Origin: a virus
Lineage: Duplodnaviria; Heunggongvirae; Uroviricota; Caudoviricetes
Strand: one strand, 5' to 3'
Virus record (IMG/VR): IMGVR_UViG_3300045988_138709
DNA: 40,733 nt
Shown here: piece after piece, positions 5,251 to 40,733 of the stretch
Position numbering within the stretch: position 1 is the first letter of the stretch
How the letters are laid out: every line of letters starts with the position of its first letter
Notes under the pieces: generated by a model
What the model saw: only the letters and a program-made list of their open reading frames with translations
Database searches by the model: none
What the model was told of the DNA's origin: nothing
Program-made: the position numbers and the translations under genes

Positions 5251-5310
5251 TTCACATCTCCTCAAGTTATCAGTTACTTGTTGATGGGGACCAGATTGTT
5301 AAAGAGCTAA

Positions 5311-5471: not shown

Positions 5472-5484
5472 TCATAAACATTGA

Positions 5485-6159: not shown

Positions 6160-6169
6160 AACGAAATTA

Positions 6170-6450: not shown

Positions 6451-6481
6451 CAGAACACTTTCAATTTTTAACCACAGAACG

Positions 6482-7380: not shown

Positions 7381-7389
7381 AGGTCGGTC

Positions 7390-8822: not shown

Positions 8823-9475
8823 TGAGTAATAAATATTGCCAGGAGCTGGTGGAACTGCGGAACAAACCAGCCCATGAACTGAAGGAAGTGGGTGATCAGT
8901 GGCGCACGCCGGACAACATTTTCTGGGGAATTAATACCCTGTTTGGCCCGTTTGTTCTGGATCTGTTCACTGACGGTGATAACGCCAAATGTGCTGCGTA
9001 TTACACGGCGGAAGACAACGCGCTGGCGCATGACTGGTCAGAACGTCTTGCGGAGCTTAAAGGGGCTGCCTTTGGTAATCCCCCATACAGCCGCGCCAGT
9101 CAGCATGAGGGGCAATACATCACCGGCATGCGTTACATCATGAAGCATGCCAGTGCCATGCGTGATAAAGGCGGGCGCTATGTTTTCCTGATCAAAGCTG
9201 CCACCAGCGAAGTGTGGTGGCCGGAAGATGCAGACCATATTGCTTTTATTCGCGGGCGTATTGGTTTTGAACTGCCTGTCTGGTTTATCCCGAAAGACGA
9301 GAAGCAGGTGCCGACAGGAGCGTTCTTCGCTGGTGCTATTGCTGTTTTCGATAAGACCTGGAAGGGACCGGCAATCAGCTACATCGGGCGCGATGAACTT
9401 GAGACATGTGGTGAGGCGTTTCTGGCGCAGGTTCGCCAGCAGGCGGAAAAACTGATCAGGGAGATGGCGGCATGA
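8822..9475 (+). CDS. Phage DNA N6-adenine methyltransferase (Dam-like)
   Basis: Motif ...FGNPPYS... (NPPY catalytic motif); start moved to ATG (MSNKYCQELV...), overlapping the upstream stop. Confidence 0.8.
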   Translation: MSNKYCQELVELRNKPAHELKEVGDQWRTPDNIFWGINTLFGPFVLDLFTDGDNAKCAAYYTAEDNALAHDWSERLAELKGAAFGNPPYSRASQHEGQYITGMRYIMKHASAMRDKGGRYVFLIKAATSEVWWPEDADHIAFIRGRIGFELPVWFIPKDEKQVPTGAFFAGAIAVFDKTWKGPAISYIGRDELETCGEAFLAQVRQQAEKLIREMAA

Positions 9476-9798
9476 CGACATTAACTCAATGCCAGCAGCA
9501 GGTGCTGGATATGCTGATTTCTTATCAGAAAGAACGTGGCTTCCCGCCAACCAATCAGGAGGTGGCTACCATGCTGGGATACCGTTCAGTGAATGCAGCG
9601 GTGGAGCATCTTCGCGCACTGGAGAAAAAAGGCGTCATCACGATAAAGCGTGGCGTGGCACGGGGGATAACGCTTCATACCGCGGTGAAGGACGACGACA
9701 GCGAGGCGGTCGGGATTATCCGCTCACTGCTTGCCGGTGAGGAAAACGCCAGGCTGCGTGCAGCCCACTGGTTACATGAGAGGGGCCTGAAAGTATGA
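9472..9798 (+). CDS. LexA N-terminal DNA-binding-domain protein (no peptidase domain)
   Basis: 108 aa; winged-HTH resembling the LexA DNA-binding domain (...NQEVATMLGYRSVNAAVEHLRALEKKGVITI...); ATGA-coupled. Confidence 0.55.
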   Translation: MTTLTQCQQQVLDMLISYQKERGFPPTNQEVATMLGYRSVNAAVEHLRALEKKGVITIKRGVARGITLHTAVKDDDSEAVGIIRSLLAGEENARLRAAHWLHERGLKV

Positions 9799-10184
9799 AG
9801 CTGATCCTGCCTTTTCCGCCCAGCGTGAACACGTACTGGCGACACCCCAACAAAGGGGCGTTTGCTGGTAAGAGCCTGATAAGCTCGGCGGGGCGAAAAT
9901 TCCAGAGCGCGGCGTGCGCAGCAATAGTTGAGCAGTTACGTCGTCTGCCGAAACCAACGTCGGCACCTGCTTCAGTGGAGATCGTGTTGTTTCCTCCGGA
10001 TAACAGGATCCGCGATCTGGACAACTATAACAAGGCGCTGTTTGACGCCCTGACCCACGCGGGGGTGTGGGAAGACGACAGTCAGGTGAAAAGAATGCTG
10101 GTGGAGTGGGGACCGGTTATCCCGGAAGGGAAGGTCGAGATCACTATCAGTAAGTACGAGAAAACGGCGGGTGCAGCCGCCTGA
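9795..10184 (+). CDS. rusA: RusA Holliday-junction resolvase
   Basis: 129 aa; MKLILPFPPSVNTYWR...RDLDNYNKALFDALTHAGVWEDDSQV matches RusA catalytic-core pattern. Confidence 0.9.
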   Translation: MKLILPFPPSVNTYWRHPNKGAFAGKSLISSAGRKFQSAACAAIVEQLRRLPKPTSAPASVEIVLFPPDNRIRDLDNYNKALFDALTHAGVWEDDSQVKRMLVEWGPVIPEGKVEITISKYEKTAGAAA

Positions 10185-10203
10185 TTAAGAGGAGAAACGA
10201 AGT

Positions 10204-11001
10204 ATGAATAATCTGATGGTTATTGATGGTATTGAAGTTCGTCGTGATGCTTATGGGCGTTACAGCCTGAACGATCTGCACAGGGCTGCTGGTTCTCTGG
10301 ATAAGCATAAGCCTGCATTCTGGCTCCGCAATGAGCAAACTGAGCGTTTAATAAGCGAGTTGCAGATTTGCAACTCGGTCAATATAGAGCCAGTTAACGT
10401 TATTCGTGGCGGAAATAACCAGGGGACGTATGTCTGCAAAGAACTGGTGTATGCCTATGCAATGTGGATCAGCCCGTCATTCCATCTGAAGGTGATCCGT
10501 ACTTTCGACATGGTAACCAGCGCACCGGAAAAATTATCCGGACAGGCTGCTGACAAGATGCAGGCTGGTGTGATTCTGCTGGACTTTATGCGCCGGGAAT
10601 TAAACCTGTCTAACTCTTCAGTGCTTGGTGCCTGCCAGAAACTCCAGGAGGCTGTTGGCTTACCGAATCTGGCACCGCGCTATGCCATTGATGCTCCTGC
10701 TGATGCACACGATGGCTCAAGTCGCCCCACGCTGTCTCTGAGTGCACTGCTGAGGCAGTATGGTATCCGCCTGACGGCTAATCAGGCATATCACCAGATG
10801 GTGAAGCTGGGGATCGTTGAACAACGCGAACGATACAGCCGTACCGCGATTAACAACATCAAAAAATTCTGGTCGCTGACGGCGAAAGGCTGCATGTTCG
10901 GCAAGAACATCACCAGTCCTGCAAATCCGCGCGAGACGCAGCCGCATTTCTTCGAATCCCGATTCCCTGAGCTGTTAAAACTGCTCGATACCGTTCATTG
11001 A
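10204..11001 (+). CDS. KilA-N domain protein
   Basis: N-terminus MVIDGIEVRRDAYGRYSLNDLHRAAG...KPAFWLRNEQTERLI typical of the KilA-N DNA-binding domain; C-terminal domain unassigned. Confidence 0.75.
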   Translation: MNNLMVIDGIEVRRDAYGRYSLNDLHRAAGSLDKHKPAFWLRNEQTERLISELQICNSVNIEPVNVIRGGNNQGTYVCKELVYAYAMWISPSFHLKVIRTFDMVTSAPEKLSGQAADKMQAGVILLDFMRRELNLSNSSVLGACQKLQEAVGLPNLAPRYAIDAPADAHDGSSRPTLSLSALLRQYGIRLTANQAYHQMVKLGIVEQRERYSRTAINNIKKFWSLTAKGCMFGKNITSPANPRETQPHFFESRFPELLKLLDTVH

Positions 11002-11002
11002 G

Positions 11003-11998
11003 GTGACCGTGAGAGCACTACTGACCCCTGAAATTGCCCCGCGTATGGGGATTGTATTGTTCAGGCCAGGTTCAGAGCTGATGCCCCTGTTTATGCAGGG
11101 GCGTGTCCTGCTGGAGCCTGAGCCGGAACGTTATTCATCTTTCGCCAGTGGTGCCGTTCCGGCGGCATCACAACCGCTGGCGGATGATCCTGCCGTTCGG
11201 GCCGTGTTCCGCAATGAGGCAGTGATCCGTCGTGCTGGTGGCGTGGAATGTCTTGAAAGCTGGTTACTTCGTGAAAAGGGCTGTCAGTGGCCTCATTCCG
11301 ACTGGCACAGCGAGAACATGACCACAATGCGGCACGCTCCGGGAGCAATTCGTCTGTGCTGGCACTGCGATAACCAGCTGCGTGACCAGTTCACGGAACG
11401 GCTGGAATCAATGGCAACGGATAACTGTGCCCGCTGGGTGTTGTCTGTTGTGCGTCGGGATCTCGGTTTTGATGATAGTCACGTTGTGACAATGCCGGAA
11501 CTGTGCTGGTGGCTGATTCGTAATGACCTGGCGGATGCCTTACCGGAAAGTGCAGCCCGTAAGGCACTGAGATTACCAAAGCCTATTGTGCCGTCTGTCA
11601 CCCGGGAAAGTGACCTTGTGCCTTCGGTTCCTGCCACCAGCATCATCCAGGATAAGGCGAAAAAGGTGCTGGCGCTGAAAGTGGATCCGGAGTCGCCGGA
11701 GTCTTTTATGTTACGCCCAAAACGTCGCCGCTGGGTTAATGAAAAGTACACGCGCTGGGTTAAGACACAGCCGTGTGCATGTTGTGGAAAGCCCGCTGAT
11801 GATCCCCACCACCTGATAGGTTACGGTCAGGGTGGAATGGGAACAAAAGCGCATGACCTTTTTGTGTTGCCTTTGTGCAGAAAGCATCACGACGAGCTGC
11901 ATGCGGATACCGTGGCATTTGAAGAAAAGTATGGCTCCCAGCTGGAGCTGATATTTCGTTTTATCGATCGCGCGCTGGCAATTGGCGTGCTGGCCTGA
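11003..11998 (+). CDS. DUF968-like protein with C-terminal Cys/His (HNH-like) cluster
   Basis: 331 aa; C-terminal ...CACCGKPADDPHHL...CRKHHDELH...; common in lambdoid nin regions (recall). Confidence 0.65.
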   Translation: MTVRALLTPEIAPRMGIVLFRPGSELMPLFMQGRVLLEPEPERYSSFASGAVPAASQPLADDPAVRAVFRNEAVIRRAGGVECLESWLLREKGCQWPHSDWHSENMTTMRHAPGAIRLCWHCDNQLRDQFTERLESMATDNCARWVLSVVRRDLGFDDSHVVTMPELCWWLIRNDLADALPESAARKALRLPKPIVPSVTRESDLVPSVPATSIIQDKAKKVLALKVDPESPESFMLRPKRRRWVNEKYTRWVKTQPCACCGKPADDPHHLIGYGQGGMGTKAHDLFVLPLCRKHHDELHADTVAFEEKYGSQLELIFRFIDRALAIGVLA

Positions 11999-12013
11999 TT
12001 TTTTCGGAGAAAG

Positions 12014-12382
12014 GTGATGCGTGATATTCAGATGGTTCTTGAGCGTTGGGGGGCATGGGCGGCGAGTGACAGTTCAGGAGTAGACTATTCGCCTATAGCT
12101 GCTGGGTTTAAGGGACTTCTTCCCTATACAAGCAAAACACGTCAGGCTTGTTCAGATAGTGATGCATTAATTATTGAAGGTTGTCTTGCTCGTCTAAAGC
12201 AAAAAAGGCCAGACGAACATTCGCTTCTTGTTGCCCATTACCTATACGGTATCTCTAAAAGAAAGCTCGCCAAAGCTCGTAAAAAGGATGAGAAACTAAT
12301 ACGCATTGAGATACAGATGGCTGAGGGGTTTATTGAAGGCTGTCTCTCAATGCTTGATCTTTGTTTGGAAATGGACCAATAG
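12014..12382 (+). CDS. Q: Late antiterminator Q (phage-82-type Q family)
   Basis: 122 aa; MRDIQMVLERWGAWAA...IAAGFKGL...CLARLK... strongly resembles 82-type Q proteins (recall). Confidence 0.85.
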   Translation: MMRDIQMVLERWGAWAASDSSGVDYSPIAAGFKGLLPYTSKTRQACSDSDALIIEGCLARLKQKRPDEHSLLVAHYLYGISKRKLAKARKKDEKLIRIEIQMAEGFIEGCLSMLDLCLEMDQ

Positions 12383-12405
12383 ACTACAAGAATAGCAACT
12401 GCCGC

Positions 12406-12828
12406 TCAGCTTTGCGGATCGGCAGTTTCTGATGGTGTAATGTTACGCGCAGATGTTTCAAGTATAGATTCCCTTCCGATTGATACCAAAATTTCGATTG
12501 TTCTTGCTTTAGCCTGCATCAATGTTGATTTTATTTCAGGACTTAAGTGGTCAGATCGTAACTGCTTCTCAATCTCAGCCAAATCACGCTTGCATTTTGC
12601 TCTTTTGGCTGCGTCTTCTGGAGATTCGAAACCATGTCTCGAAATGAACCAATTCATGACGTAAGTTAAAGTTGCCGCAACACCCGGTACTAATGCGTAG
12701 GCTACAGTTCGCCACACGCTATTAGGGTCGGTTAAAATCGCGCTAACAAGAACACTTAAAATTGCTCCCCAACCACCAGTTGAAAGGGTAGCTTTTCCTG
12801 TGCTTAGACCTTTAGTTTGAGAATTCAT
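12406..12828 (-). CDS. Cassette gene 3: predicted membrane protein (two N-terminal TM helices plus charged helical tail)
   Basis: 140 aa; hydrophobic segments GGWGAILSVLVSAIL and VAYALVPGVAATLTYVMNWFI; ATG start; ATGA-coupled to cassette gene 2. Confidence 0.6.
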   Translation of the reverse strand: MNSQTKGLSTGKATLSTGGWGAILSVLVSAILTDPNSVWRTVAYALVPGVAATLTYVMNWFISRHGFESPEDAAKRAKCKRDLAEIEKQLRSDHLSPEIKSTLMQAKARTIEILVSIGRESILETSARNITPSETADPQS

Positions 12829-13094
12829 TTTCGTTTTGAATTCTCCGCAATTGCCTCATCAATGAGGGTTGTTAGCATTTTTCCCTTTTTACTTGGAACT
12901 TTTATTACTAGCGTTTTGGTCACTCCGGAATCTTCATCGTGATATCGGAATTCGAAGACTTTTGTAGGGAATAGTCGACGCCAAAGCAAGGCTGACGCTG
13001 AATAGCAAAAACGACTAAAGGCAGGGATGATCATTATCACCCCTATCCAGAAGATCAGTTGTGCTATCTGCATGTTTAGTGTCACTTTTGTCAA
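12825..13094 (-). CDS. Cassette gene 2: small single-pass membrane protein
   Basis: 89-aa ORF (possible TTG start; in-frame ATG 7 codons in); TM segment IAQLIFWIGVIMIIPAF; stop overlaps gene 3 start. Confidence 0.5.
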   Translation of the reverse strand: MTKVTLNMQIAQLIFWIGVIMIIPAFSRFCYSASALLWRRLFPTKVFEFRYHDEDSGVTKTLVIKVPSKKGKMLTTLIDEAIAENSKRK

Positions 13095-13960
13095 GCCTCA
13101 GCAGGGCGTTTTCGTTTTACTTTGGTTATAGCATACTTGGTTGTGGCATTTCGCGCAGTGAAAGTTTTTATAGTTTTTAGCTCAACAACAAACAAATCTT
13201 CTTTTGTAAAACTGATGATTCCGTTTTGAACTTGGTGTATAAACAACTGATCTTCAAAGGTAACAGCATGCTCTTCGCCTAAATAATCGATTCTCCAACC
13301 CTTTGTACCCTCGAAGTTGATCTGTACGAATCTAACATTGACTTCTTCTACAGACTCTTCTTTTTCAAGTAGTGTGCCTCTAGGCAGCGGTTTGATCTCT
13401 TCGGTTTCACTTCCTTCAAGACGAACGACTTCTTCGCCTTCATCATTCAGCACCTTAAATACTGCTCCTTGTTTGCCGTCTAATGGTGCACGAACTACAT
13501 TCACAAGGGCATCACGGACTTCTGGATCTGTTACTAACTTAGCCACTGAGTCATGGCAAACAATTTCTTCCCCTTCAAGCTCAAGAACAGATTCTTCTGT
13601 TCCTGCCCGTTTTGTTACCGAAATTACTTTCTTGCTGCCCAGTTGGCGGATTAGTGATAATGCTGGAGCTCCAATAGTAGCCCCGGCTATCCCTGTTAGG
13701 CCAATCACTTTTGCTACGTCGACGGCATGAGGAACAAGCTCCATCATCGTATAGGATACGCCGAGTGATCCCGCTTCAGCTGGATTAGTAACCATTAACT
13801 TAACGGTTTGTTGGCCGTCATTAAGTCTTTTATCAGCTGCTGATATTAAATCTGCCATCGAACCTATGGAAATGCTTAATGTTTTGGCATCAATTTTATG
13901 CTGTGCTAATTCATTATCCTCTGCATCGTAGAAGATCTGAAAAGAAGTTGTTTTAGTCAC
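13091..13960 (-). CDS. Cassette gene 1: hypothetical 289-aa protein (acidic linker, one hydrophobic segment)
   Basis: Long ORF with probable GTG start; no catalytic motif recognised; hydrophobic stretch VAKVIGLTGIAGATIGAPALSLI; stop overlaps gene 2 start. Confidence 0.6.
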   Translation of the reverse strand: MTKTTSFQIFYDAEDNELAQHKIDAKTLSISIGSMADLISAADKRLNDGQQTVKLMVTNPAEAGSLGVSYTMMELVPHAVDVAKVIGLTGIAGATIGAPALSLIRQLGSKKVISVTKRAGTEESVLELEGEEIVCHDSVAKLVTDPEVRDALVNVVRAPLDGKQGAVFKVLNDEGEEVVRLEGSETEEIKPLPRGTLLEKEESVEEVNVRFVQINFEGTKGWRIDYLGEEHAVTFEDQLFIHQVQNGIISFTKEDLFVVELKTIKTFTARNATTKYAITKVKRKRPAEA

Positions 13961-14082
13961 TCTTTGCTCGCTATGTCTTGATTTTTTTCCACAAAATACC
14001 TTTTTTTGGTGTAAAAAACATTATCGCGGTCCGCAAAAATTGCGTTACTGTGTTAAGAGTGATTACTTCGTCACACAGCTTA

Positions 14083-14108
14083 AACCCGCCGTCGAGCGGG
14101 TTTTTTTA
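14083..14108 (+). terminator. Intrinsic terminator (tR'-like) downstream of Q
   Basis: AACCCGC-CGTCGA-GCGGGTT followed by a T7 run. Confidence 0.5.
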
Positions 14109-14230
14109 TACCTGTAAACCTGGTGCAGTACGGTAAACACGCTGGTGGTCGTGAATACTGACTTTTTATCTTGCTGGCTTTTTAGACAAGAGTTATTGGT
14201 ATGTCATGTTAACCATGAAGGTAAAAAGAC

Positions 14231-14425
14231 ATGCTAAAACAGCAAGATATGACAGAAACGGCGAAAGTTGTTTTTAATGAATTAAACGGCAAACCGGCAA
14301 CAGTCGGGGAGATAGCACAAAACACATACCTTTCACGCGAACGCTGTCAGTTAATACTGACCCAGCTGGTTATGGCGGGGCTGGCAGATTACCAGTTCGG
14401 CTGTTACAGACGCCTTCAGCAATGA
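14231..14425 (+). CDS. Small hypothetical protein (possible winged-helix)
   Basis: 64-aa ORF with ATG and AAGGTAAAAAG upstream; precedes the methyltransferase. Confidence 0.4.
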   Translation: MLKQQDMTETAKVVFNELNGKPATVGEIAQNTYLSRERCQLILTQLVMAGLADYQFGCYRRLQQ

Positions 14426-14574
14426 AGGGCTTTTAATTTGTGAAAATGGGCGGCTGGTGGGTGTTGGTAGCACCTGCCAGCCATTCGCTCATGCTTACTG
14501 GTCACAAGCGAACCATGGCCCACTGCTTTAGCGCAAAAGCAGAGTGAGCCTACCAGAGTTACGCTTACTGATCC

Positions 14575-15627
14575 ATGAAAAATACTGTAAAAATAAACAG
14601 TGTTGATTTAATCAACGCTGATTGCCTGCATTTTATTCAGTCCCTGCCTGATGACTCCATTGATCTGATTGTTACCGATCCGCCGTACTTCAAAGTGAAG
14701 CCCAACGGCTGGGACAATCAGTGGAAAGGGGACGAAGATTACCTGAAGTGGCTGGACCACTGTCTGGCCCAGTTCTGGCGGGTACTGAAACCAGCCGGAA
14801 GCCTTTACCTGTTCTGTGGACATCGCCTGGCATCTGATATCGAGATCATGATGCGTGAACGTTTCAACGTTCTTAACCATATCATCTGGGCGAAGCCGTC
14901 CGGACGATGGAACGGGTGTAATAAAGAAAGCCTGCGGGCATATTTCCCCGCTACAGAGCGCGTTCTGTTTGCTGAACATTACCAGGGGCCATATCGCGGC
15001 AAAAGTGACGATTATGCGGCAAAAGAAAGGGAACTCAAACAGCACATAATGGCACCGCTGATTTCGTATTTCAGGGATGCTCGTGCCGAACTGGGTATAA
15101 CGGCAAAACAGATTGCCGAAGCCACTGGTAAGAAAAATATGGTTTCCCACTGGTTTGGTGCCAGTCAGTGGCAGTTGCCGAATGAGGCTGACTACCGGAA
15201 GTTGCAGGCACTGTTTTCCCGTATAGCGGCAGATAAATTTCAGGAACAACAACTGGAACAACCACACCACCAGCTGGTGGCATCTTATGATTCACTGAAT
15301 CGCAAATATTCTGAATTGCTGGATGAGTTTAAAACTCTCCGGCGCTATTTCTCCGTATCAGTTTCCGTGCCTTATACCGACGTCTGGACGCATAAACCCG
15401 TTCAGTTCTACCCGGGTAAACATCCGTGTGAGAAGCCTGCGGATATGCTCCGGCAAATAATCAGTGCCAGTAGTCGACAAGGCGATCTGGTTGCTGATTT
15501 CTTTATGGGATCCGGTTCCACAATAAAAGCGGCAATGGCGCTGGGGCGTCGGGCGTTAGGTGTTGAACTTGAGTCAGAGCGGTTTAATCAGACGGTGAAA
15601 GAGGTAAGTGAACTGGTGGGGAAATAA
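14575..15627 (+). CDS. DNA methyltransferase (N6-adenine/N4-cytosine class; DPPY then FxGSGS order)
   Basis: 350 aa; N-terminal ...LIVTDPPYF... and C-terminal ...DFFMGSGST...; no adjacent restriction endonuclease seen. Confidence 0.85.
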   Translation: MKNTVKINSVDLINADCLHFIQSLPDDSIDLIVTDPPYFKVKPNGWDNQWKGDEDYLKWLDHCLAQFWRVLKPAGSLYLFCGHRLASDIEIMMRERFNVLNHIIWAKPSGRWNGCNKESLRAYFPATERVLFAEHYQGPYRGKSDDYAAKERELKQHIMAPLISYFRDARAELGITAKQIAEATGKKNMVSHWFGASQWQLPNEADYRKLQALFSRIAADKFQEQQLEQPHHQLVASYDSLNRKYSELLDEFKTLRRYFSVSVSVPYTDVWTHKPVQFYPGKHPCEKPADMLRQIISASSRQGDLVADFFMGSGSTIKAAMALGRRALGVELESERFNQTVKEVSELVGK

Positions 15628-15634
15628 TTCTGGT

Positions 15635-15660
15635 GGCCACGTTGCGTGGCCTTTTTATTT
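15635..15660 (+). terminator. Intrinsic terminator between methyltransferase and holin
   Basis: GGCCACG-TTG-CGTGGCC followed by TTTTTATTT. Confidence 0.55.
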
Positions 15661-15703
15661 CCAACACAGCACCCGCAAATATCGCGAGGTGAGAGATGAC
15701 GAA

Positions 15704-16039
15704 ATGCCTCATAACCCAAATACCTGGCCGGACTGGCTGGAGTTGTTTCAGAGCTGGTGGCGTGGAGATACGCCGCTGGGCGCAGTGATTATGTCGATTG
15801 TTATGGCTGGTTTGCGTATTGCCTATTTTGGTGGTGGTGGCGGCTGGAAACGAAAAACACTCGAAATTTTGCTCTGTGGCGCTCTGACGCTGACCTTTGC
15901 ATCCGCTCTTGAGTATGTCGGATGGCCTAAATCGCTTTCTGTTGCCATTGGTGGTGGGGTGGGGCTGATCGGGGTCGATGCAATTCGTGGGGCTGCAATG
16001 CGAGTAATCGGTAATAAGTTTGGTAGTTCTAAGGAGTAA
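15704..16039 (+). CDS. Holin (three predicted TM segments)
   Basis: Start at ATG with GAGGTGAG RBS, downstream of the terminator; hydrophobic segments LGAVIMSIVMAGLRIAYF, TLEILLCGALTLTFASALEYV and LSVAIGGGVGLIGV; directly precedes the endolysin. Confidence 0.7.
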   Translation: MPHNPNTWPDWLELFQSWWRGDTPLGAVIMSIVMAGLRIAYFGGGGGWKRKTLEILLCGALTLTFASALEYVGWPKSLSVAIGGGVGLIGVDAIRGAAMRVIGNKFGSSKE

Positions 16040-16042
16040 TTT

Positions 16043-16519
16043 ATGCAGGTACTAAATTCCCAGCGTAAAGCTTTCCTTGATATGGTGGCTTGGTCAGAAG
16101 GAACGGATAACGGACGACAACCGACACGTAACCACGGTTATGACGTTATTGTCGGTGGTGAACTCTTCACTGATTACTCCGATCACCCTCGCAAACTTGT
16201 CACGCTAAACCCGAAACTCAAGTCAACAGCCGCCGGACGTTACCAGCTTCTTTCACGCTGGTGGGATGCTTACCGTAAACAGCTTGGCCTGAAAGATTTT
16301 TCTCCAGAAAGCCAGGACGCTGTAGCTCTGCAGCAGATTAAAGAGCGTGGCGCTTTACCGATGATTGACCGTGGCAATATTCGTCAGGCAATCGACCGTT
16401 GCAGCAATATCTGGGCGTCGTTACCTGGTGCAGGTTATGGTCAGTATGAACATAAAATCAGTGACCTGATTGCACGGTTTGAAGAGGCTGGTGGGGTGGT
16501 AAATGAAGTTGAGCTATAA
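16043..16519 (+). CDS. R: Endolysin, lambda R-type lytic transglycosylase
   Basis: 158 aa; near-collinear with lambda R (...NSQRKAFLDMVAWSEGTDNGRQPTRNHGYDVIVGGELFTDYSDHPRKLVTLNPKLKSTAAGRYQLL...), from recall. Confidence 0.9.
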   Translation: MQVLNSQRKAFLDMVAWSEGTDNGRQPTRNHGYDVIVGGELFTDYSDHPRKLVTLNPKLKSTAAGRYQLLSRWWDAYRKQLGLKDFSPESQDAVALQQIKERGALPMIDRGNIRQAIDRCSNIWASLPGAGYGQYEHKISDLIARFEEAGGVVNEVEL

Positions 16520-16895
16520 GCTGGTTATCGCTGCATTCTTCTTTACTGTCATCGGTTCTTTCATCTGGTCTGCCAACCACTACTACAGCAAATATCAGCA
16601 CGAAAAGAAACGTGCTGATGAGGCTGTACAAAATGCCAAATCGGCAACTGTCATTACCAATAACGTCCTGCAATCACTGCAAATCGTCAATACAGTTCTG
16701 GAGGCTAACCAGCATGCAAAACAGCAGATCACACTGGAGTCACAGAGAACCCAGGAAGATATCAAAGTGGCTGTTGCGGATGATGATTGTGCTTCACGTC
16801 CTGTGCCTGCTGCCGCTGCTGACCGGTTGCGGAAGTACGCGAACAGTTTACGTGCCTATTCCGGCGGTACCGTTGCCAGCAAGCCTGACTACTGA
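16503..16895 (+). CDS. Rz: Rz-like i-spanin
   Basis: N-terminal TM anchor (LVIAAFFFTVIGSFIWSA) then coiled-coil-like region; follows the endolysin. Confidence 0.7.
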   Translation: MKLSYKLVIAAFFFTVIGSFIWSANHYYSKYQHEKKRADEAVQNAKSATVITNNVLQSLQIVNTVLEANQHAKQQITLESQRTQEDIKVAVADDDCASRPVPAAAADRLRKYANSLRAYSGGTVASKPDY

Positions 16896-17052
16896 AACTC
16901 CCCAGCCAGTTATTCCCGATCCTCTGACCTATGGGGCCAGCCTGGATCTGAATGTGAGCCTGCTTTCGGCGTTGGGACAATGCAATATTGACAAAGCGGG
17001 GATTAGAAGTATCGAGATGCGCCGTAACGTTTTGCTGGCAGCAGGCAAATAG
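16780..17052 (+). CDS. Rz1: Rz1-like o-spanin lipoprotein, overlapping Rz in another frame
   Basis: Internal start MMIVLHVLCLLPLLTGCGS with lipobox LTGC, Pro-rich mature part; starts inside Rz and extends past its stop. Confidence 0.6.
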   Translation: MMIVLHVLCLLPLLTGCGSTRTVYVPIPAVPLPASLTTETPQPVIPDPLTYGASLDLNVSLLSALGQCNIDKAGIRSIEMRRNVLLAAGK

Positions 17053-17078
17053 TCTGGACAAAGAACAGGAATATATTT

Positions 17079-17429
17079 ATGCCTCCTCGAACCCCAAAAG
17101 CCTGCCGCGTTCGCGGCTGCCCCCATACCACCACTGACTCGTCAGGCTATTGCGAAAGGCACAAAAGCGAAGGCTGGAAGCAATACAAGCCAGGCCAGTC
17201 CCGTCATCAGCGCGGTTATGGTTCGAAGTGGGACAGTATCCGCGCGCGCGTCCTGAAGCGTGACAAAGGTTTATGTCAGTTATGTCTGCGTGCCGGTGTG
17301 GTGCGTGAAGCTAAAACCGTTGACCACATCATCCCTAAAGCGCATGGCGGCACCGATGCAGACAGTAATCTGCAGAGCCTGTGCTGGCCGTGCCATAAGA
17401 CGAAGACGGCCCGTGAACGGCTAAAGTGA
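17079..17429 (+). CDS. HNH endonuclease (terminase-associated)
   Basis: 116 aa; Cys clusters and ...DHIIPKAHGGTDADSNLQSLCWPCHKTK...; immediately upstream of small terminase. Confidence 0.85.
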   Translation: MPPRTPKACRVRGCPHTTTDSSGYCERHKSEGWKQYKPGQSRHQRGYGSKWDSIRARVLKRDKGLCQLCLRAGVVREAKTVDHIIPKAHGGTDADSNLQSLCWPCHKTKTARERLK

Positions 17430-34405: not shown

Positions 34406-35149
34406 ATGCATCGTATAGACACGAAAACCGCGCAGAAGGATAAGTTCGGCGCGGGTAAGAACGGTTTTACCCGTGGTAACCCCCAGACTGGCACGCCTGC
34501 CACCGATCTGGATGATGACTACTTTGATATGTTGCAGGAAGAACTCTGCAGCGTGGTGGAGGCATCCGGTGCCAGCCTGGAGAAGGCGCGGCACGACCAG
34601 TTGCTTACCGCGCTTCGTGCGCTGCTGTTAAGCCGCAAGAATCCGTTTGGCGATATCAAATCGGATGGCACGGTGAAAACAGCTCTCGAAAACCTTGGTT
34701 TGGGAGAAGCGGCAAAACGGAATGTGGGCAACGGGGAAAACCAAATCCCTGATATGTCTTTCTGGACGGTTACTGGTGGCAATGGAAATTTTGTGATTCG
34801 TCAACCTGACGGGCTAATCACTCAGATGGTTACTGTAAGTATAAGCGGTCCAGTGGCGATGAATGGAATGACTGATAATGCTTATGCCATTACAGGTTCT
34901 AATAAGTCTTATATTGCCACAGCCACATTGCCCTTTGTATTTCCTAATAAGGTACTGGGCGTTATCCCTCTGGTATCAACAACAGCCTATGGTGGTGTAT
35001 CCAGTAATATTACAGGTTCATACGCGACGGCGGTTTGTTCTTTTGCCGCTGTCCGGGGGAATAATACGATTGTATTCAAAGTCGACAAACCACTGAATGC
35101 AGCCTTTCCTTCAGATACCAGCGTCTCAGCGTTAATCATTGGACGGTAA
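34406..35149 (+). CDS. Tail fibre protein: constant N-terminus (about 34406-34695) fused to the currently expressed variable C-terminus
   Basis: 247 aa; GGAG RBS; the left crossover site lies inside the gene at codons encoding ...ENLGLGE.... Confidence 0.8.
34683..34708. repeat. Left crossover site of the invertible segment (Gin/Hin/Pin-type, 26 bp)
   Basis: CTCTCGAAAACCTTGGTTTGGGAGAA; about 20/26 identity to the reverse complement of the right site, including the identical 13-bp arm TGGTTTGGGAGAA. Confidence 0.65.
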
Positions 35150-35151
35150 TA

Positions 35152-35595
35152 ATGAACTCAGTATTCTTTTCACCCGGAAGTAAAAGTTTTTATCTACAAG
35201 AATTGTTTCCAGAATATGAGGATGCGGGAACGCTTCCAGATGATGTTATTGAAATTACCCGAGAAACATATGAGCAATTTCTTGGGCTGCATCCAGAAGG
35301 GAAAGAAATTGGCGCTGACAGTTCAGGACGGCCAATATGGATTAATTCCCCACCGCCTTCAAAAGAGGATGAGGTGTTGATGGCTGAAATGAAAAAAATA
35401 TCTTTGGTTTCAGAAGCCAATACCTACATCAATACCCATCAGTGGCCTGGCAAAGCTGCTATTGGTCGTCTGAAAGGTAACGAGCTGGAGCAATATAATT
35501 TATGGCTGGATTATCTGGACGCACTGGAACTGGTTGATCCCTCCAGTGCTCCAGATATTGAATGGCCTACGCCTCCGGCAGTTCAGGCCAGATGA
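35152..35595 (+). CDS. Tail fibre assembly protein (expressed orientation)
   Basis: 147 aa; conserved C-terminal ...LDYLDALELVDPSSAPDIEWPTPP... also present in the opposite-strand paralogue. Confidence 0.8.
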   Translation: MNSVFFSPGSKSFYLQELFPEYEDAGTLPDDVIEITRETYEQFLGLHPEGKEIGADSSGRPIWINSPPPSKEDEVLMAEMKKISLVSEANTYINTHQWPGKAAIGRLKGNELEQYNLWLDYLDALELVDPSSAPDIEWPTPPAVQAR

Positions 35596-36169
35596 CATTC
35601 GGCGCGGTGCTGGTATCTGTTGCCGTCACCGCGTCAATGTAATCCAGCACAGCGTTAAGCTGGGTTGTTTCTGCCTGCGTCAGTTTCCGTCCGGCCTGTA
35701 ATTTCAGCTGAATCAGACTGATGGAAGCCATTGCAGCATCAATCAGTGACTGGCGCTGTGCTTCTGCCGCGTCTACTGCGGCGCTATGCTGTGCCTCAGT
35801 ATCGGTTACCCATTTCTCACCATCCCATTTATCGTATGGAGATAAAGGGGCGATAGTGGTTGTATTTTCAGGGTAATCACCCGGAGCTTTGATTTCTTTT
35901 GATTCTCCTGTTTCTGTGCTAAAGACGATTTCACCACGATGGTCTGGCACATATTCCCATGAGTTAAAATCTGCAGAACGGCAAATTGCATACCCAGTTT
36001 TGTATGAGCCAGGAGCATCTAAACAGGAACATGCCGGAATGCCGACACCCACAGCAAGATATTCAGTTGATGTGAAAATATATTCCCGTGTTTCACCATC
36101 ATAGTTATAAACCGTAATATTTCCTGCCTGGGTGGCGATAAATTCGTTATTTAATACAGCGTAATCCAT
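35567..36169 (-). CDS. Alternative tail fibre assembly protein (silent orientation)
   Basis: 200 aa; C-terminal ...LDYIDAVTATDTSTAPNVIWPELP... paralogous to the + strand chaperone. Confidence 0.75.
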   Translation of the reverse strand: MDYAVLNNEFIATQAGNITVYNYDGETREYIFTSTEYLAVGVGIPACSCLDAPGSYKTGYAICRSADFNSWEYVPDHRGEIVFSTETGESKEIKAPGDYPENTTTIAPLSPYDKWDGEKWVTDTEAQHSAAVDAAEAQRQSLIDAAMASISLIQLKLQAGRKLTQAETTQLNAVLDYIDAVTATDTSTAPNVIWPELPEA

Positions 36170-36670
36170 TATGCAGCCCTCATGATATACGCAAATGCCA
36201 GGTTCCGTGGTCTGGTTTCTTTAATTAAAGAGGAGGCATCAGGTGAACTCACTGATTCAGCACCATTTCTTCCACCAGTGGTATAAGTAAAAACTCTTTC
36301 ACTGTTAGACCAGTAATCCACACCAACTGTTTTTGCTGATGAAAAAATGGTTTCATCAGATATAACCTGTTCTATTCCATACGGGATATTAGTAACTGAC
36401 CCCACTTTTGTAGGTATTCCATGATTATGAGAAATTACTGCATGCTCTTGATTCGTTAATAAAGTACGACCGCTATCCACTCCACGCCCGTCATCCCAGC
36501 CACGAATAAACTCACCACGTAAATCAGGCAATTTATTTGTCGGATAAGCCTTTGCCAGTTCCGGGTATTCTTCAGCAGAAAAAGCGGCACCGTTGCATTT
36601 CAGCCAGCCTGTTGGCGGAGTGGCGGAAGGCCACGGAACAGGCACGCCAACGGGTAATGCCGAACCTTCT
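36169..36670 (-). CDS. Alternative tail fibre variable C-terminal segment (promoterless; expressed only after inversion)
   Basis: Reading frame passes in-frame through the right crossover site (...INVGLGEGS...), matching ...ENLGLGE... at the left site; ORF 36169..36720 trimmed to the site. Confidence 0.65.
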
Positions 36671-36692
36671 CCCAAACCAACGTTTATGAAAA
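36667..36692. repeat. Right crossover site of the invertible segment
   Basis: TTCTCCCAAACCAACGTTTATGAAAA, in inverted orientation relative to the left site, about 55 bp upstream of the invertase start. Confidence 0.65.
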
Positions 36693-36746
36693 TGCAGAAA
36701 TAACGAGCAAATGGCATCATTCCTGCTTTTGTCAGGGAGATCCACC

Positions 36747-37301
36747 ATGCTTATTGGCTATGTACGCGTATCAACAAATGACCAGAACACCGATCTACAA
36801 CGTAATGCGTTGAACTGTGTAGGATGTGGGCTGATTTTTGAAGACAAGATAAGCGGTACGAAGTCCGAAAGGCCCGGACTGAAAAAACTGCTCAGGACAT
36901 TATCGGCAGGTGACACTCTGGTTGTCTGGAAGCTGGACAGGTTAGGGCGCAGTATGCGGCATCTTGTTACGCTGATAGAAGAGTTGCGCCAGCGTGGCGT
37001 GAATTTCCGAAGCCTGACTGACAGTATTGATACCAGTACCCCAATGGGCCGTTTCTTTTTTCATGTCATGGGTGCCCTAGCTGAAATGGAACGAGAACTG
37101 ATTGTTGAACGAACAAAAGCTGGACTGGAAGCTGCTCGCGCACAGGGACGAATTGGTGGACGTCGTCCCAAACTTACACCAGAACAATGGGCGCAGGCCG
37201 GGCGATTAATTGCATCAGGCGTTCCTCGCCAGAAGGTGGCGATCATCTATGATGTTGGTATATCGACACTGTATAAGAAGTTTCCGGTCGGAGATAAATG
37301 A
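36747..37301 (+). CDS. pin: Site-specific DNA invertase (serine recombinase, Pin/Gin/Hin family)
   Basis: Start MLIGYVRVSTNDQ (catalytic Ser in the canonical N-terminal motif), GGGAGA RBS; C-terminal HTH; adjacent to the crossover site. Confidence 0.9.
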   Translation: MLIGYVRVSTNDQNTDLQRNALNCVGCGLIFEDKISGTKSERPGLKKLLRTLSAGDTLVVWKLDRLGRSMRHLVTLIEELRQRGVNFRSLTDSIDTSTPMGRFFFHVMGALAEMERELIVERTKAGLEAARAQGRIGGRRPKLTPEQWAQAGRLIASGVPRQKVAIIYDVGISTLYKKFPVGDK

Positions 37302-37303
37302 AA

Positions 37304-37339
37304 CCGTAGCACGTCGTATGCAAGAAGATCGTGCTGCGG
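37304..37339. repeat. Hairpin-forming repeat, copy 1 (10-bp stem, 16-nt loop)
   Basis: CCGTAGCACG-TCGTATGCAAGAAGATC-CGTGCTGCGG directly after the pin stop; near-identical second copy at 38317-38350. Confidence 0.6.
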
Positions 37340-37361
37340 TTTATGCTTATCACTTAAAGAC

Positions 37362-38231
<870 letters not shown>

Positions 38232-38316: not shown

Positions 38317-38350
38317 GTCTCGAAACCCGTAGCCACGTCGTATGCAAGAA
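38317..38350. repeat. Hairpin-forming repeat, copy 2
   Basis: CCGTAGCCACG-TCGTATGCAAGAA-CGTGCTACGG; same orientation as copy 1, so the two bracket the GIY-YIG gene. Confidence 0.6.
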
Positions 38351-38734
38351 CGTGCTACGGCTGGCTGGTGAACTTCCGATAGTGCGAGTATTGAATGATT
38401 TCCAACTGTTATCGATTTTGCGTATTTTTTGCATGAGAGGATTTTTACCTCCTCCCACCGATCCTCCATGGCTTTACGCCAGTGTCTCTGGTCTGCTATG
38501 TGCCAAGAGCGGACGTTAGAAGTAAAAAAGCATCTTTACAAGCGGGTTGTTGGGGAGAGTTTTGTTGCGTTCGCCACAACTCTTGAGAATGCTGCTATTT
38601 ATTATGGTAGTATTGACAGCTAAAATTTATAATGATTAGCGACTCAATAGCCAGTTCAAGCCAGATTTTGATGGGACACTAATGAAATCCTCCCGCACTA
38701 TTGCGGTATATTCATACCCACTCGAGCATCTTTA

Positions 38735-39259
38735 GTGTTAACAAGGAATGAAATCGTGACAGAATTTCTTGAAAAAATGTTTGATCGTGTTTATTCGGAG
38801 AAAGACTTCAGCATTAACATCGCAATATTTGTCTCCGGAATCGCAGGAGTTACCTGTTATCTTATTCTTCGCGATTATGTACTGACTCTGTTTTCTTTTA
38901 TTATTATTTTTCCAGTTGTAAAGATTATTGCGGGAGGATTATATGTGCGAATTATTACCCGCAAGGGAGAGGCAGTTGCAGAAAAACGACTGGCAACGCT
39001 TTATAATTCTCTGACTGGAAGAGAAAAAGAAGTAGTCATGCACTTTGTGACGCATGGTGGTTCTGTTATGACATGGGGACAAATGAATAGGCTTGATGAT
39101 CCTGAACCGGGTGTAGAATCTCTGGCCCGTCGGGGATTACTGAATACGTCCGTAACGATGGATGGTATGCGAGAAACGTTTGAACTAGATCTGACCCTCT
39201 TTAATTATGCATATAAGTATCACCCCCATCAGGAGAAGATGCTTACTTCAGAAGAATAA
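38735..39259 (+). CDS. Hypothetical membrane protein (two to three N-terminal TM helices)
   Basis: 174-aa ORF with GTG start (alternative in-frame GTG at about 38756 has an AAGGA RBS); hydrophobic segments INIAIFVSGIAGVTCYLIL and LTLFSFIIIFPVV; AT-rich. Confidence 0.5.
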   Translation: MLTRNEIVTEFLEKMFDRVYSEKDFSINIAIFVSGIAGVTCYLILRDYVLTLFSFIIIFPVVKIIAGGLYVRIITRKGEAVAEKRLATLYNSLTGREKEVVMHFVTHGGSVMTWGQMNRLDDPEPGVESLARRGLLNTSVTMDGMRETFELDLTLFNYAYKYHPHQEKMLTSEE

Positions 39260-39528: not shown

Positions 39529-40446
39529 TCATGGTTTGTTGCTAATATCTCTACAGTCAGGACAAATGTTAGTCCCCTCCCCAAGCCAAGAACTCATTTC
39601 CTCTTCAGGCCATTCAGCACCACAAACATCACATGTGACTTCAATTGAGCCTGAGTCTTCGGCACCGCAATACGTACAACGATATCCTGAAGTAGAATCG
39701 TTATTTTGAATCATTGTCTCATGACCACAGTAATCGCAGATATATTCTTTCCAATTAACTAACTCAAAAAACTTTGGTCTAACCCCAAGAAATGCTGCTT
39801 TTCTAGCATCAGCTACATCAAGATAACCTTCATGAACATTATGCTCATATTCGTCAGAAAGTATATTATAGGAATTAGATATTTCCTTAGAAACTTCTTT
39901 ATCTAGATCGTATAAACCAAATATATCAGAGAACTCAGCCAACCCTCTGACCAAACGCCCCATTGCCAGACGAACATGTTTAATAGTAAACGAGAATTCG
40001 TAATGCTCAATTGAATTTCTAAGATCTTTCATCCAAGCGATATCATCTAGTAACTCTTTATCAACTAAGTCCACAGAGGTTATGCTACACTTTTCATGTG
40101 TAGCTATCGATATTGCTTGATCCAAAGTAATAGTATGAGGATTTTTATGTCCTTTAATAAGTTCTTCAAAGTCGAATTCTTCAGCCTCCATTTTATAAAA
40201 AGCTTCAATAAGATTGACTTTGTCACTTTTGGCACGCTCTATTACTGCTCTGTAGCATTTTGAAAAAATCAAGTTTTCGTCTAATGTTTGAATATACATT
40301 TTCAACGTCAATTCAAAACAATGAGACAAATGTAGTATAGCAAACTTGAAAGCTTTATAATCTCCATTTTCTCCTTGCTGGAATTTTTTGATGGCTTCAT
40401 TAAAACTATCTAAAGCATTGGATTTTAGATCAAGTTTAAATTCCAT
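39529..40446 (-). CDS. HEPN-motif protein with C-terminal multi-CxxC zinc ribbon (candidate RNase-type abortive-infection effector)
   Basis: Alpha-helical N-terminal region containing R-x4-H (DLRNSIEHYEF); C-terminus CDYCGH...CTYCG...CDVCG...CPDC; start set to in-frame ATG (MEFKLDLK...), ORF track starts 3 codons upstream at GTG; AT-rich. Confidence 0.6.
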   Translation of the reverse strand: MEFKLDLKSNALDSFNEAIKKFQQGENGDYKAFKFAILHLSHCFELTLKMYIQTLDENLIFSKCYRAVIERAKSDKVNLIEAFYKMEAEEFDFEELIKGHKNPHTITLDQAISIATHEKCSITSVDLVDKELLDDIAWMKDLRNSIEHYEFSFTIKHVRLAMGRLVRGLAEFSDIFGLYDLDKEVSKEISNSYNILSDEYEHNVHEGYLDVADARKAAFLGVRPKFFELVNWKEYICDYCGHETMIQNNDSTSGYRCTYCGAEDSGSIEVTCDVCGAEWPEEEMSSWLGEGTNICPDCRDISNKP

Positions 40447-40733
40447 TGTTTTCACTTACTTTACTTGAATGGTAGAATATTTTTACATAATTAAGAACGC
40501 TGCGCTATAGCATCGGAGGTACTAACTTCCGCTCCTCGCTCATAACAGACATAAACTTCAGTTATGGCATAAAGGTATGCATGCTGGGTGGGGAAAGTAT
40601 GAAGGAAAAGAAGACTGCTGCGCCGTTTGTCGTCACGTTTATCTTCATTGGCTATGCAAGTCGTAATACAAGGTGGGACAAAACTGAGACACATAAGGCC
40701 TCGCAATGGCTTGCAAGGCTTTACATGTTTTGA

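What the first reader, a model, noticed from the sequence alone, without database searches (positions are those of the whole stretch)
34683..37301. Complete tail-fibre host-range inversion switch (26-bp crossover sites, two fibre-tip/chaperone sets, Pin-family invertase)
Inverted 26-bp sites at about 34683-34708 and 36667-36692 share the 13-bp arm TGGTTTGGGAGAA; both alternative fibre C-termini read in-frame through the site (GLGE codons). This supports a functional Mu-G / e14-P-type switch producing two receptor specificities.
Basis: partly seen in the sequence, partly recalled or inferred. Interest (0 to 1): 0.55.

Follow-up and report, generated by a model that had tools for sequence, protein, structure and literature searches.

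The report
e14-type Pin tail-fibre inversion switch
This is the well-known Pin/pix DNA-inversion switch of E. coli e14-type prophages, here in an intact-looking prophage, which flips a 2-kb segment to swap the tip of the phage tail fibre; it is real and evidently active in nature, but not new.

Summary
Two 26-bp sites (34683-34708 and 36667-36692) lie in inverted orientation. They are letter-for-letter identical to the published pixL and pixR sites of the E. coli K-12 e14 element.

They bracket a 1986-bp segment carrying two convergent sets, each a fibre tip plus a Caudo_TAP chaperone. The flanking gene (36747-37301) is an intact serine invertase, 94% identical to K-12 PinE and about 77-81% to Gin and Cin. 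Its 5' end conserves the stretch that is annotated as the enhancer in P1 cin.

Both fibre C-termini read in frame through the site (…NLGLGE…), giving fibres of 247 or 266 aa.

Both orientations exist in nature on otherwise identical DNA. Flipping 34695-36680 in silico makes 14,434 bp of the window identical to E. coli 20A24. Two further near-clonal genome pairs differ only by this inversion, and one confines the crossover to 10 bp starting at the core TT.

Only the fibre-tip alleles differ from K-12. Receptor specificities and any host-defence role remain inferred.

The parts
34406..35149 (+). Tail-fibre gene in its present orientation (247 aa): constant N-terminal part Sc (aa 1 to about 101, 34406-34708) fused to tip A (34709-35149).
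   Evidence: ORF. It starts 4 nt after the ymfQ/Mu-gp48-like baseplate gene. Sc is 96% identical to the K-12 StfP N-terminus and matches PHROG tail-fibre families (phrog_1396 at 2.7e-59, phrog_2617 'short tail fiber'). Tip A matches phrog_12714 (7.8e-48) and, below threshold, Pfam Gp53-like_C.
34683..34708 (.). pixL, the left 26-bp crossover site, with core dinucleotide TT at 34695-34696. It encodes ...LENLGLGE.
   Evidence: Identical to the reverse complement of the published pixL (Table 3 of PMC3241671). 1 mismatch to the dix consensus.
34695..36680 (.). Invertible P segment, 1986 bp measured core to core.
   Evidence: Flipping exactly this interval gives 0 mismatches to E. coli 20A24 over 14,434 bp. 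Flipped copies were found at 100% identity in 3 genomes.
35152..35595 (+). Tail-fibre assembly chaperone for tip A (TfaP-like, 147 aa).
   Evidence: Pfam Caudo_TAP 3.6e-27. phrog_188. 56% identical to K-12 TfaP.
35567..36169 (-). Tail-fibre assembly chaperone for tip B (TfaE, 200 aa).
   Evidence: Pfam Caudo_TAP 2.4e-32. 90.5% identical to K-12 TfaE. Annotated tfaE in RefSeq.
36169..36717 (-). Tip B (StfE-like, phage tail-collar domain). It is currently an orphan ORF with its own ATG and a 13-aa leader, MPFARYFCIFINV, encoded by the outer half of pixR. After inversion, aa GLGE onwards fuse to Sc to give a 266-aa fibre.
   Evidence: Pfam Collar 1.2e-15. 57% identical to K-12 StfE. The fused form matches 'tail collar fiber protein' PHROGs. 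Translation of the flipped sequence is, and the orphan forms are.
36667..36692 (.). pixR, the right 26-bp crossover site, with core AA at 36679-36680.
   Evidence: Identical to the published pixR and to the K-12 e14 site.
36747..37301 (+). pin, a serine DNA invertase (184 aa), preceded by AGGGAG 7 nt upstream of the ATG.
   Evidence: Pfam Resolvase 1.2e-51 plus HTH_7 4.6e-13. Matches the Gin structures 3uj3/4m6f at E about 1e-92 over residues 1-181, with the VRVSTNDQ serine and the KLDRLGRS motif conserved. 172 of 184 residues identical to K-12 PinE (12 substitutions listed). phrog_125 DNA invertase.
36765..36836 (.). Stretch equivalent to the recombinational (Fis-dependent) enhancer, inside the 5' end of pin. 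It contains two Fis-like G-N13-C 15-mers at 36768-36782 and 36817-36831.
   Evidence: The P1 record annotates nt 19-90 of cin as the enhancer of C inversion. A gap-free codon alignment puts the same nt 19-90 here. This stretch is 67/72 identical to K-12 pinE. Both G-N13-C motifs are conserved in pin, gin and cin. Function is inferred.

Best explanation
This is the P-inversion (Pin/pix) switch of the e14 prophage family, sitting at the end of the tail operon of an intact-looking Mu-like-tailed prophage integrated at tRNA-Thr (thrW).

Proposed mechanism:
- The tail-fibre gene has a fixed 5' part (Sc, about 100 codons) that runs into pixL.
- Pin dimers bind the two inverted 26-bp pix sites.
- With the Fis-bound enhancer inside the 5' end of pin, Pin forms an invertasome, cuts both sites at the central TT/AA dinucleotide, and exchanges strands by subunit rotation.
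- This inverts the 1986-bp segment.

In the orientation seen in the window, the late operon expresses Sc-tip A (247 aa) followed by its chaperone TfaA. In the other orientation it expresses Sc-tip B (266 aa, tail-collar type) followed by TfaE. A lysogen population therefore yields virions with one of two receptor-binding tips (host-range bet-hedging).

Shown here: the anatomy, site identity with pix, an intact invertase, the conserved enhancer stretch, and real inversion events in nature with the crossover confined to a 10-bp stretch that starts with the core.

Inferred from the Gin, Hin, Cin and Pin literature: Fis dependence, the cleavage chemistry, and that the two tips bind different receptors.
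For: - **Sites.** They are identical to published pixL/pixR and to K-12 e14. They are the only two such sites in the window.
- **Invertase.** It has Resolvase and HTH_7 domains. It matches Gin crystal-structure sequences at E about 1e-92 with catalytic motifs intact. It is 94% identical to PinE, 77% to Gin and 81% to Cin.
- **Enhancer.** The stretch aligned to the annotated cin enhancer is 93% identical to K-12 pinE, and both Fis-like 15-mers are conserved across pin, gin and cin.
- **Cassettes.** Both tips are in frame through GLGE, and each is followed by a Caudo_TAP chaperone.
- **Natural inversion.** The in-silico flipped 3.1-kb query hits 3 genomes at 99.9-100% identity over its full length. 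At 80% coverage or more, 17 genomes have the window orientation and 32 the flipped one.
  - Window against 20A24: 0 mismatches in 14,434 bp after the flip.
  - IrN against Cn5: 19,050 bp identical apart from an exact inversion.
  - 23CRST027 against 23CRST031: an A/G polymorphism in the inner arm travels with the segment, confining exchange to TTGGTTTGGG, which begins at the core TT.
- **Prophage context.** It has a full set of integrase, regulatory, lysis, head and tail genes.
- **Literature.** e14 P inversion by PinE has been shown by sequencing, PCR and qPCR in K-12 (PMC4272514; PMC12529663).
Against: - No read-level data exist for this particular strain, so inversion in this genome is inferred from identical relatives.
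- Pin here carries A25V and E28G, where PinE, Gin and Cin all have A and E. The same nucleotide changes fall in the second Fis-like site. However, this exact pin allele occurs with both orientations (window and 90-1 against 20A24).
- Other Pin-type invertases elsewhere in the genome could flip the segment in trans, as PinQ and PinR do for e14.
- No consensus sigma-70 promoter for pin was found.
- Tip A has no characterised homologue. Its Pfam hit is below threshold and the structure model failed, so 'two receptor specificities' is unproven.
Confidence: 0.9

Rival explanations
1. The switch also works for the lysogen, or works mainly for it. It would phase-vary an orphan tip protein (leader MPFARYFCIFINV + GLGE + whichever tip is not joined to Sc) that blocks adsorption of other phages. 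This is what was reported for StfE2 of K-12 e14. It does not exclude the host-range role.
For: An orphan ORF with its own ATG exists in both orientations: 182 aa now and 163 aa after the flip. The leader and upstream sequence are conserved with K-12. Such orphan products are called as genes in many genomes (P0123, P0128, P0129). In K-12 the orphan chimera StfE2 reduced T2 adsorption and protected against several phages (PMC12529663). pin is directly followed by the anti-phage gene PD-T4-3, and by mcrA in e14.
Against: Tip A here is unrelated by BLAST to the K-12 StfP tip that makes StfE2, and profile comparison gave only 41% probability. The leader overlaps pixR and the pin upstream region, so its conservation may have nothing to do with coding. 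The Shine-Dalgarno spacing is poor: AGGA lies 3 nt from the annotated ATG. No PADLOC model matches the orphan. This prophage looks intact, so a plain virion function is sufficient.
Confidence: 0.2
2. The switch is a fossil in this genome. Pin, or its enhancer, is inactive because of the A25V and E28G changes, and the orientations seen in relatives were produced by other invertases in trans or long ago.
For: Positions 25 and 28 are invariant in PinE, Gin and Cin but changed here, and the changes overlap the second Fis-like site. Trans-inversion by PinQ/PinR is documented. One relative carries R65W in the DRLGR motif, showing that such inactivation does occur.
Against: The exact pin allele of the window occurs in both orientations on DNA identical over 14.4 kb, so a flip happened very recently in this lineage. 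All catalytic motifs are intact. The sites are perfect.
Confidence: 0.07
3. The orientation differences between genomes are assembly artefacts or RecA-mediated recombination between short inverted repeats, not site-specific recombination.
For: Assemblers can collapse mixed-orientation populations to either state. Only 15-20 bp of identity flank the segment.
Against: A mixed population is itself evidence of switching. Repeats of 15-20 bp are far below the usual homology requirement of RecA (established knowledge). The breakpoints coincide with sites identical to proven Pin substrates, and an adjacent invertase gene is present. The same exact event appears in three independent near-clonal pairs.
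Confidence: 0.02

Closest known systems
P segment / PinE / pixL-pixR of the defective prophage e14 of E. coli K-12 (Plasterk and van de Putte 1985; Goldberg et al. 2014, PMC4272514; Kirigo et al. 2025, PMC12529663)
   Same: The 26-bp sites are identical. The gene order is the same: ymfQ, Sc, pixL, tip, tfa, then tfaE and stfE on the opposite strand, pixR, pin. Pin is 94% identical, Sc 96% and TfaE 90.5%.
   Different: The K-12 element is a 15-kb remnant with a broken baseplate gene (jayE pseudogene), integrated at icd. Here the prophage looks complete and sits at thrW. The segment is 1986 bp rather than 1797 bp. Tip A shows no BLAST similarity to the StfP tip. TfaA is 56% identical to TfaP and tip B only 57% to StfE. 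The cargo after pin is PD-T4-3 rather than mcrA.
G segment / Gin / gix of phage Mu
   Same: The logic is the same: a constant Sc part, two convergent Sv-U sets, the invertase gene just outside the segment, and an enhancer in its 5' end. The upstream Mu-like baseplate genes (gp44-48 homologues) are also shared. Pin is 77% identical to Gin.
   Different: The Mu segment is about 3 kb with long fibres (S is 504 aa). The gix core is GA, whereas here it is AA/TT. The fibre here is short (247 or 266 aa) with only about 100 constant residues.
C segment / Cin / cix of phage P1, and the multiple-inversion Min system of plasmid p15B
   Same: Both use Din-family invertases and 26-bp sites with an AA core. 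The enhancer lies in nt 19-90 of the invertase gene. Pin is 81% identical to Cin.
   Different: In P1, cin lies on the opposite side of the segment relative to Sc, and the segment is 4.2 kb. Min uses six sites to shuffle many cassettes. Here there are only two sites.
Hin / hix flagellar phase variation in Salmonella
   Same: It uses the same recombinase family, site architecture and Fis-enhancer mechanism. Pin is reported to complement Hin (as cited).
   Different: Hin flips a promoter rather than coding cassettes, and it is not a phage fibre switch.

Membership tests
Din-family DNA invertases (Hin, Gin, Cin, Pin) | A small (about 185-195 aa) serine recombinase with an N-terminal catalytic domain and a C-terminal HTH. 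| tested here: met
   184 aa. Pfam Resolvase 1.2e-51 plus HTH_7 4.6e-13. Full-length match to Gin structures, E 1.8e-92.
Din-family DNA invertases (Hin, Gin, Cin, Pin) | The catalytic serine in the YVRVST motif and the arginines of the DRLGR motif are intact. | tested here: met
   The alignment to Gin 4m6f shows VRVSTNDQ and KLDRLGRS unchanged. None of the 12 substitutions relative to PinE touches them.
Din-family DNA invertases (Hin, Gin, Cin, Pin) | Two 26-bp sites (12-bp imperfect half-sites around a 2-bp core) in inverted orientation with matching cores. | tested here: met
   Identical to published pixL/pixR. 1 mismatch each to the dix consensus. The core is TT/AA in both.
Din-family DNA invertases (Hin, Gin, Cin, Pin) | A cis-acting Fis-dependent recombinational enhancer, located in the 5' end of the invertase gene. 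| tested here: inconclusive
   The sequence equivalent to the annotated cin enhancer is conserved (67/72 identical to K-12 pinE), and two Fis-like G-N13-C motifs are conserved in pin, gin and cin. Three substitutions fall in the second motif. Fis binding and dependence cannot be tested here.
Din-family DNA invertases (Hin, Gin, Cin, Pin) | The segment actually inverts, with exchange at the core. | tested here: met
   Three near-identical genome pairs differ by an exact inversion. The crossover is confined to 10 bp starting at the core. It is not resolved to the 2-bp core, and the enzyme responsible is not identified.
Phage tail-fibre host-range cassette switch (Mu G, P1 C, e14 P type) | A constant fibre N-terminus outside the segment, and two alternative C-termini in frame through the site. 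| tested here: met
   247-aa and 266-aa fibres that share aa 1-101.
Phage tail-fibre host-range cassette switch (Mu G, P1 C, e14 P type) | Each alternative tip is followed by its own tail-fibre assembly chaperone. | tested here: met
   Two Caudo_TAP proteins, one downstream of each tip.
Phage tail-fibre host-range cassette switch (Mu G, P1 C, e14 P type) | Both tips are genuine receptor-binding fibre domains. | tested here: inconclusive
   Tip B has the Collar domain at 1.2e-15 and matches many fibre PHROGs. Tip A has only a sub-threshold Gp53-like_C hit (20.3 bits against a 24.9-bit cut-off) and phrog_12714 of unknown function. However, tip A is found fused through the same NLGLGE junction to two other fibre N-termini. 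The structure model was unusable.
Phage tail-fibre host-range cassette switch (Mu G, P1 C, e14 P type) | The two orientations give different host range or adsorption. | not testable with these tools
   This needs locked-orientation lysates and plating or adsorption assays.

The most novel reading that the evidence does not exclude
In lysogens the switch is not only a virion host-range device. Each orientation also exposes an orphan ORF in which the outer half of pixR encodes a short hydrophobic leader (MPFARYFCIFINV) fused at GLGE to the unused tip. This would give a phase-variable protein that blocks adsorption of competing phages, as reported for StfE2 in K-12. Together with the adjacent PD-T4-3 gene it would make the pin end of these prophages a small phase-variable defence island, even in an intact phage.
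Probability: 0.15. Interest if true: 0.45.

Novelty: already known. Interest (0 to 1): 0.15.

Why it matters
It matters mainly as a clean, verified annotation. The window carries a complete and evidently active copy of the classical e14 P-inversion system inside a prophage that still looks able to make particles, whereas the K-12 reference copy sits in a remnant. Such a strain could be used to do what K-12 e14 cannot: link each orientation to a real host range. It could also test the recent claim that the orphan tip protein protects the lysogen. The finding does not open a new question.

Tried and rejected
- **Structure of fibre A.** AlphaFold2 with an 11-sequence alignment gave mean pLDDT 39.2 and pTM 0.32. 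The model is unusable, so no fold search was run.
- **Tip A against the K-12 StfP tip.** Profile comparison gave 41% probability and E 2.8e-4 over 40 columns. This is suggestive only and was not used.
- **Whole-library HMMER search with tip A.** Only 23 cluster representatives reached E of 1e-3 or better. The family is narrow and offers no deep alignment.
- **tblastn of tip A against isolated phages.** There was one weak hit.
- **Promoter scan.** It found no consensus promoter for pin or within the junctions. I drew no conclusion, since invertase promoters are known to be weak.
- **Search for attR.** I looked for an exact repeat of the tRNA-Thr end within the window and found none of 13 nt or longer, so the right prophage end is not defined.
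- **A third pix-like site.** I considered multiple inversion as in Min, but no further site exists.
- **Origin of the window.** I first assumed it was strain 90-1. It is identical only in the switch region (3101 bases at 100%); the late region as a whole is 99.8% identical, and the early region is mosaic relative to 90-1.
- **Papers not held.** Johnson's review, Mehta 2004 and Plasterk 1985 were unavailable.
Full report
**1. The observation**

- Left site, 34683-34708: CTCTCGAAAACC-TT-GGTTTGGGAGAA.
- Right site, 36667-36692: TTCTCCCAAACC-AA-CGTTTATGAAAA.

Read as an inverted pair they agree at 21 of 26 positions. The 2-bp core plus the whole inner arm (TTGGTTTGGGAGAAG) is identical. The 14-mer TTCTCCCAAACCAA occurs only at these two places in the 40.7-kb window, once per strand (0.30 expected even allowing 2 mismatches). 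A scan with the published 26-bp Din consensus finds only these two sites with 1 mismatch or fewer, so there is no third site.

**2. Anatomy**

Upstream lies a Mu-like baseplate block: baseplate J, then a Mu gp48/YmfQ homologue ending at 34402. The elements that follow are:
- The fibre gene starts at 34406. Its first 101 or so codons (Sc) run into the left site.
- In the present orientation it continues into tip A (34709-35149), giving a 247-aa protein.
- A Caudo_TAP chaperone follows at 35152-35595.
- On the opposite strand lie a second Caudo_TAP chaperone (35567-36169, TfaE) and a second tip with a phage tail-collar domain (36169 to about 36680).
- Just outside the right site, 36747-37301 encodes a 184-aa serine recombinase with Resolvase and HTH_7 domains.

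Inverting 34695-36680 in silico joins Sc in frame to tip B (...ENLGLGEGSALPV..., 266 aa).

**3. Identity of the parts**

- **Sites.** They are letter-for-letter the pixL and pixR sites tabulated for Pin (Table 3 of PMC3241671). They are identical to the two sites in the e14 element of E. coli K-12 MG1655.
- **Invertase.** It is 172/184 identical to K-12 PinE (12 substitutions), 77% identical to Mu Gin and 81% to P1 Cin.
  - It aligns end to end with the Gin crystal-structure sequences (E about 1e-92).
  - The VRVSTNDQ serine motif and the KLDRLGRS arginine motif are unchanged.
- **Enhancer.** The P1 record annotates nt 19-90 of cin as the enhancer of C inversion.
  - The same nt 19-90 of pin (36765-36836) align without gaps and are 67/72 identical to K-12 pinE.
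  - They contain two Fis-like G-N13-C 15-mers (36768-36782 and 36817-36831) that are conserved in pin, gin and cin.
  - Three of the five differences from K-12 fall in the second motif. These are also the A25V and E28G changes in Pin. This is the only blemish I found.

**4. Does it flip?**

I searched the 5,426 complete E. coli genomes with the 3.1-kb region as it stands, and again with the segment flipped in silico.
- As it stands, 17 genomes have it at 80% coverage or more.
- Flipped, 32 genomes do, and three of them match at 99.9-100% identity over the full length.

Direct comparison gave three near-identical pairs:
- **Window and E. coli 20A24.** After flipping 34695-36680 the two are identical at all 14,434 compared positions.
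- **Strains IrN and Cn5.** Their genome sizes differ by 14 bp. They are identical over 19,050 bp except for an exact inversion between the sites.
- **Strains 23CRST027 and 23CRST031.** They come from the same study. After the flip, the about 14.6 kb ahead of a 1-bp indel in IS1 differ by one SNP.
  - Their two sites carry an A/G polymorphism in the inner arm that moves with the segment.
  - Together with the C/G difference at the last base of the outer arms, this confines the exchange to the 10 bp TTGGTTTGGG, which begins with the core TT.

This is what serine-invertase exchange at the core predicts, though it is not resolved to 2 bp. The window's exact pin allele occurs with both orientations.

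**5. Context**

The window starts at proA and tRNA-Thr (115-190). It carries a prophage with integrase, repressor/Cro-like regulators, replication genes, Q, lysis genes, terminase, portal, protease, capsid, sheath, tube, tape measure and baseplate. This is judged from the annotation of strain 90-1, which is identical in the 3.1-kb switch region, 99.8% identical across the late region and mosaic in the early region. Only one small gene is flagged as frameshifted there. Unlike K-12 e14, where the baseplate J gene is a pseudogene in a 15-kb remnant, this copy sits in a prophage that may still make particles. That is not shown.

**6. Differences from K-12 e14**

| Part | Identity to the K-12 counterpart |
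|---|---|
| Sc | 96% |
| TfaE | 90.5% |
| Tip B vs StfE | 57% (collar part identical, distal part divergent) |
| TfaA vs TfaP | 56% |
| Tip A vs StfP tip | none beyond residue 106 |

- Tip A belongs to a narrow family. Only 23 cluster representatives were found in 1.8 billion proteins, there was one weak hit among isolated phages, and it matches phrog_12714 of unknown function.
- Its Pfam Gp53-like_C hit is below threshold.
- The same tip is found fused, through the same NLGLGE junction, to two unrelated fibre N-termini (P0121 and P0122). It also occurs as the orphan form with the MPFARYFCIFINV leader (P0123, P0128, P0129). This supports tip A being a fibre module, and the pix/GLGE junction being a cassette boundary.
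- A structure model of fibre A failed (pLDDT 39). A profile comparison with the K-12 StfP tip was inconclusive.

**7. Mechanism**

The best-supported account is the standard one for this family.
1. Pin dimers bind pixL and pixR.
2. Together with the Fis-bound enhancer in pin, they assemble an invertasome on supercoiled DNA.
3. Pin cuts at the central dinucleotide through the active-site serine.
4. Strands are exchanged by subunit rotation and religated.
5. The late tail operon then reads Sc-tip A-TfaA or Sc-tip B-TfaE.

The anatomy, site identity, intact enzyme, conserved enhancer stretch and real inversion events are shown here. Fis dependence and the chemistry are taken from established work on Hin, Gin, Cin and Pin. 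Different receptor specificity of the two tips is inferred from their unrelated sequences and separate chaperones.

**8. Rival or additional reading**

A 2025 paper reports that inversion of the K-12 e14 P segment (by PinQ, PinR or PinE) creates an orphan chimera, StfE2, that blocks T2 adsorption (PMC12529663). The equivalent orphan ORF exists here in both orientations, and pin is followed by a known defence gene. So a host-defence side function cannot be excluded. But tip A differs from the K-12 tip, the leader overlaps pixR, and nothing here tests expression. I give this about 0.15-0.2, and it is not exclusive of the main explanation. A fossil switch (0.07) and an artefact or RecA event (0.02) are poorly supported.

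**9. Verdict**

The finding is correct and well described, but it is the already-known e14 Pin/pix system. RefSeq annotates it as pinE and tfaE in identical genomes. The interest is low. The only specific features are the intact prophage context and the uncharacterised tip A allele.

Noticed in passing
window 37362-38135 (-): The gene directly downstream of pin is a full-length match to the PADLOC model PD-T4-3 (E 9.6e-140). This is a single-gene GIY-YIG anti-phage defence (Pfam LEM-3_GIY-YIG). It occupies the position held by mcrA in K-12 e14. A retron Ec67 reverse transcriptase follows it in a related prophage (L009 12470-14305). The pin-distal end therefore looks like a defence-cargo hotspot.
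   Followed up: partly
window 37303-37340 and 38325-38363: An imperfect direct repeat of about 40 bp, including the exact 17-mer CACGTCGTATGCAAGAA at 37310 and 38334, flanks the PD-T4-3 gene. RefSeq calls the second copy a 'capsid protein' pseudogene fragment. It may be a scar of cassette insertion. The sequence is absent downstream of pinE in K-12.
   Followed up: partly
window 39529-40455 (-) and 38735-39259 (+): Two ORFs without Pfam hits lie between PD-T4-3 and the window end. The N-terminus of the 308-aa protein matches the candidate defence model PDC-S64 (E 2.2e-16, residues 6-90 only). The 174-aa protein matches nothing.
   Followed up: partly
L010 position 10565 (E. coli 23CRST031 pinE): The only SNP in the about 14.6 kb between the near-clonal pair 23CRST027 and 23CRST031 is R65W in Pin, in the catalytic DRLGR motif. 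It occurs in the strain carrying the flipped orientation. It may be a naturally locked switch.
   Followed up: no
window 34695-34708 (GLGE junction); proteins P0121, P0122, P0123, P0128, P0129: The same tip A is joined through an identical NLGLGE motif to at least three different fibre N-termini. It also appears as an orphan with the leader MPFARYFCIFINV. The crossover site therefore doubles as a module boundary for tip exchange between phage lineages.
   Followed up: partly
window 1-17080: The window is not strain 90-1 throughout. The late region from 17080 onward is 99.8% identical, but 6466-12360 is 97% identical and about 12360-17080 is largely unmatched or 90% identical. The early and lysis-proximal regions are therefore mosaic among otherwise identical prophages. 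tRNA-Thr lies at 115-190, next to the integrase.
   Followed up: no
window 35505-35522 / 35631-35648: An 18-nt inverted repeat (83% complementary) lies where the two convergent chaperone genes overlap by 29 bp. It reflects the conserved C-terminal LDY(L/I)DA...WP motif of both Tfa proteins and is not a separate recombination site.
   Followed up: yes
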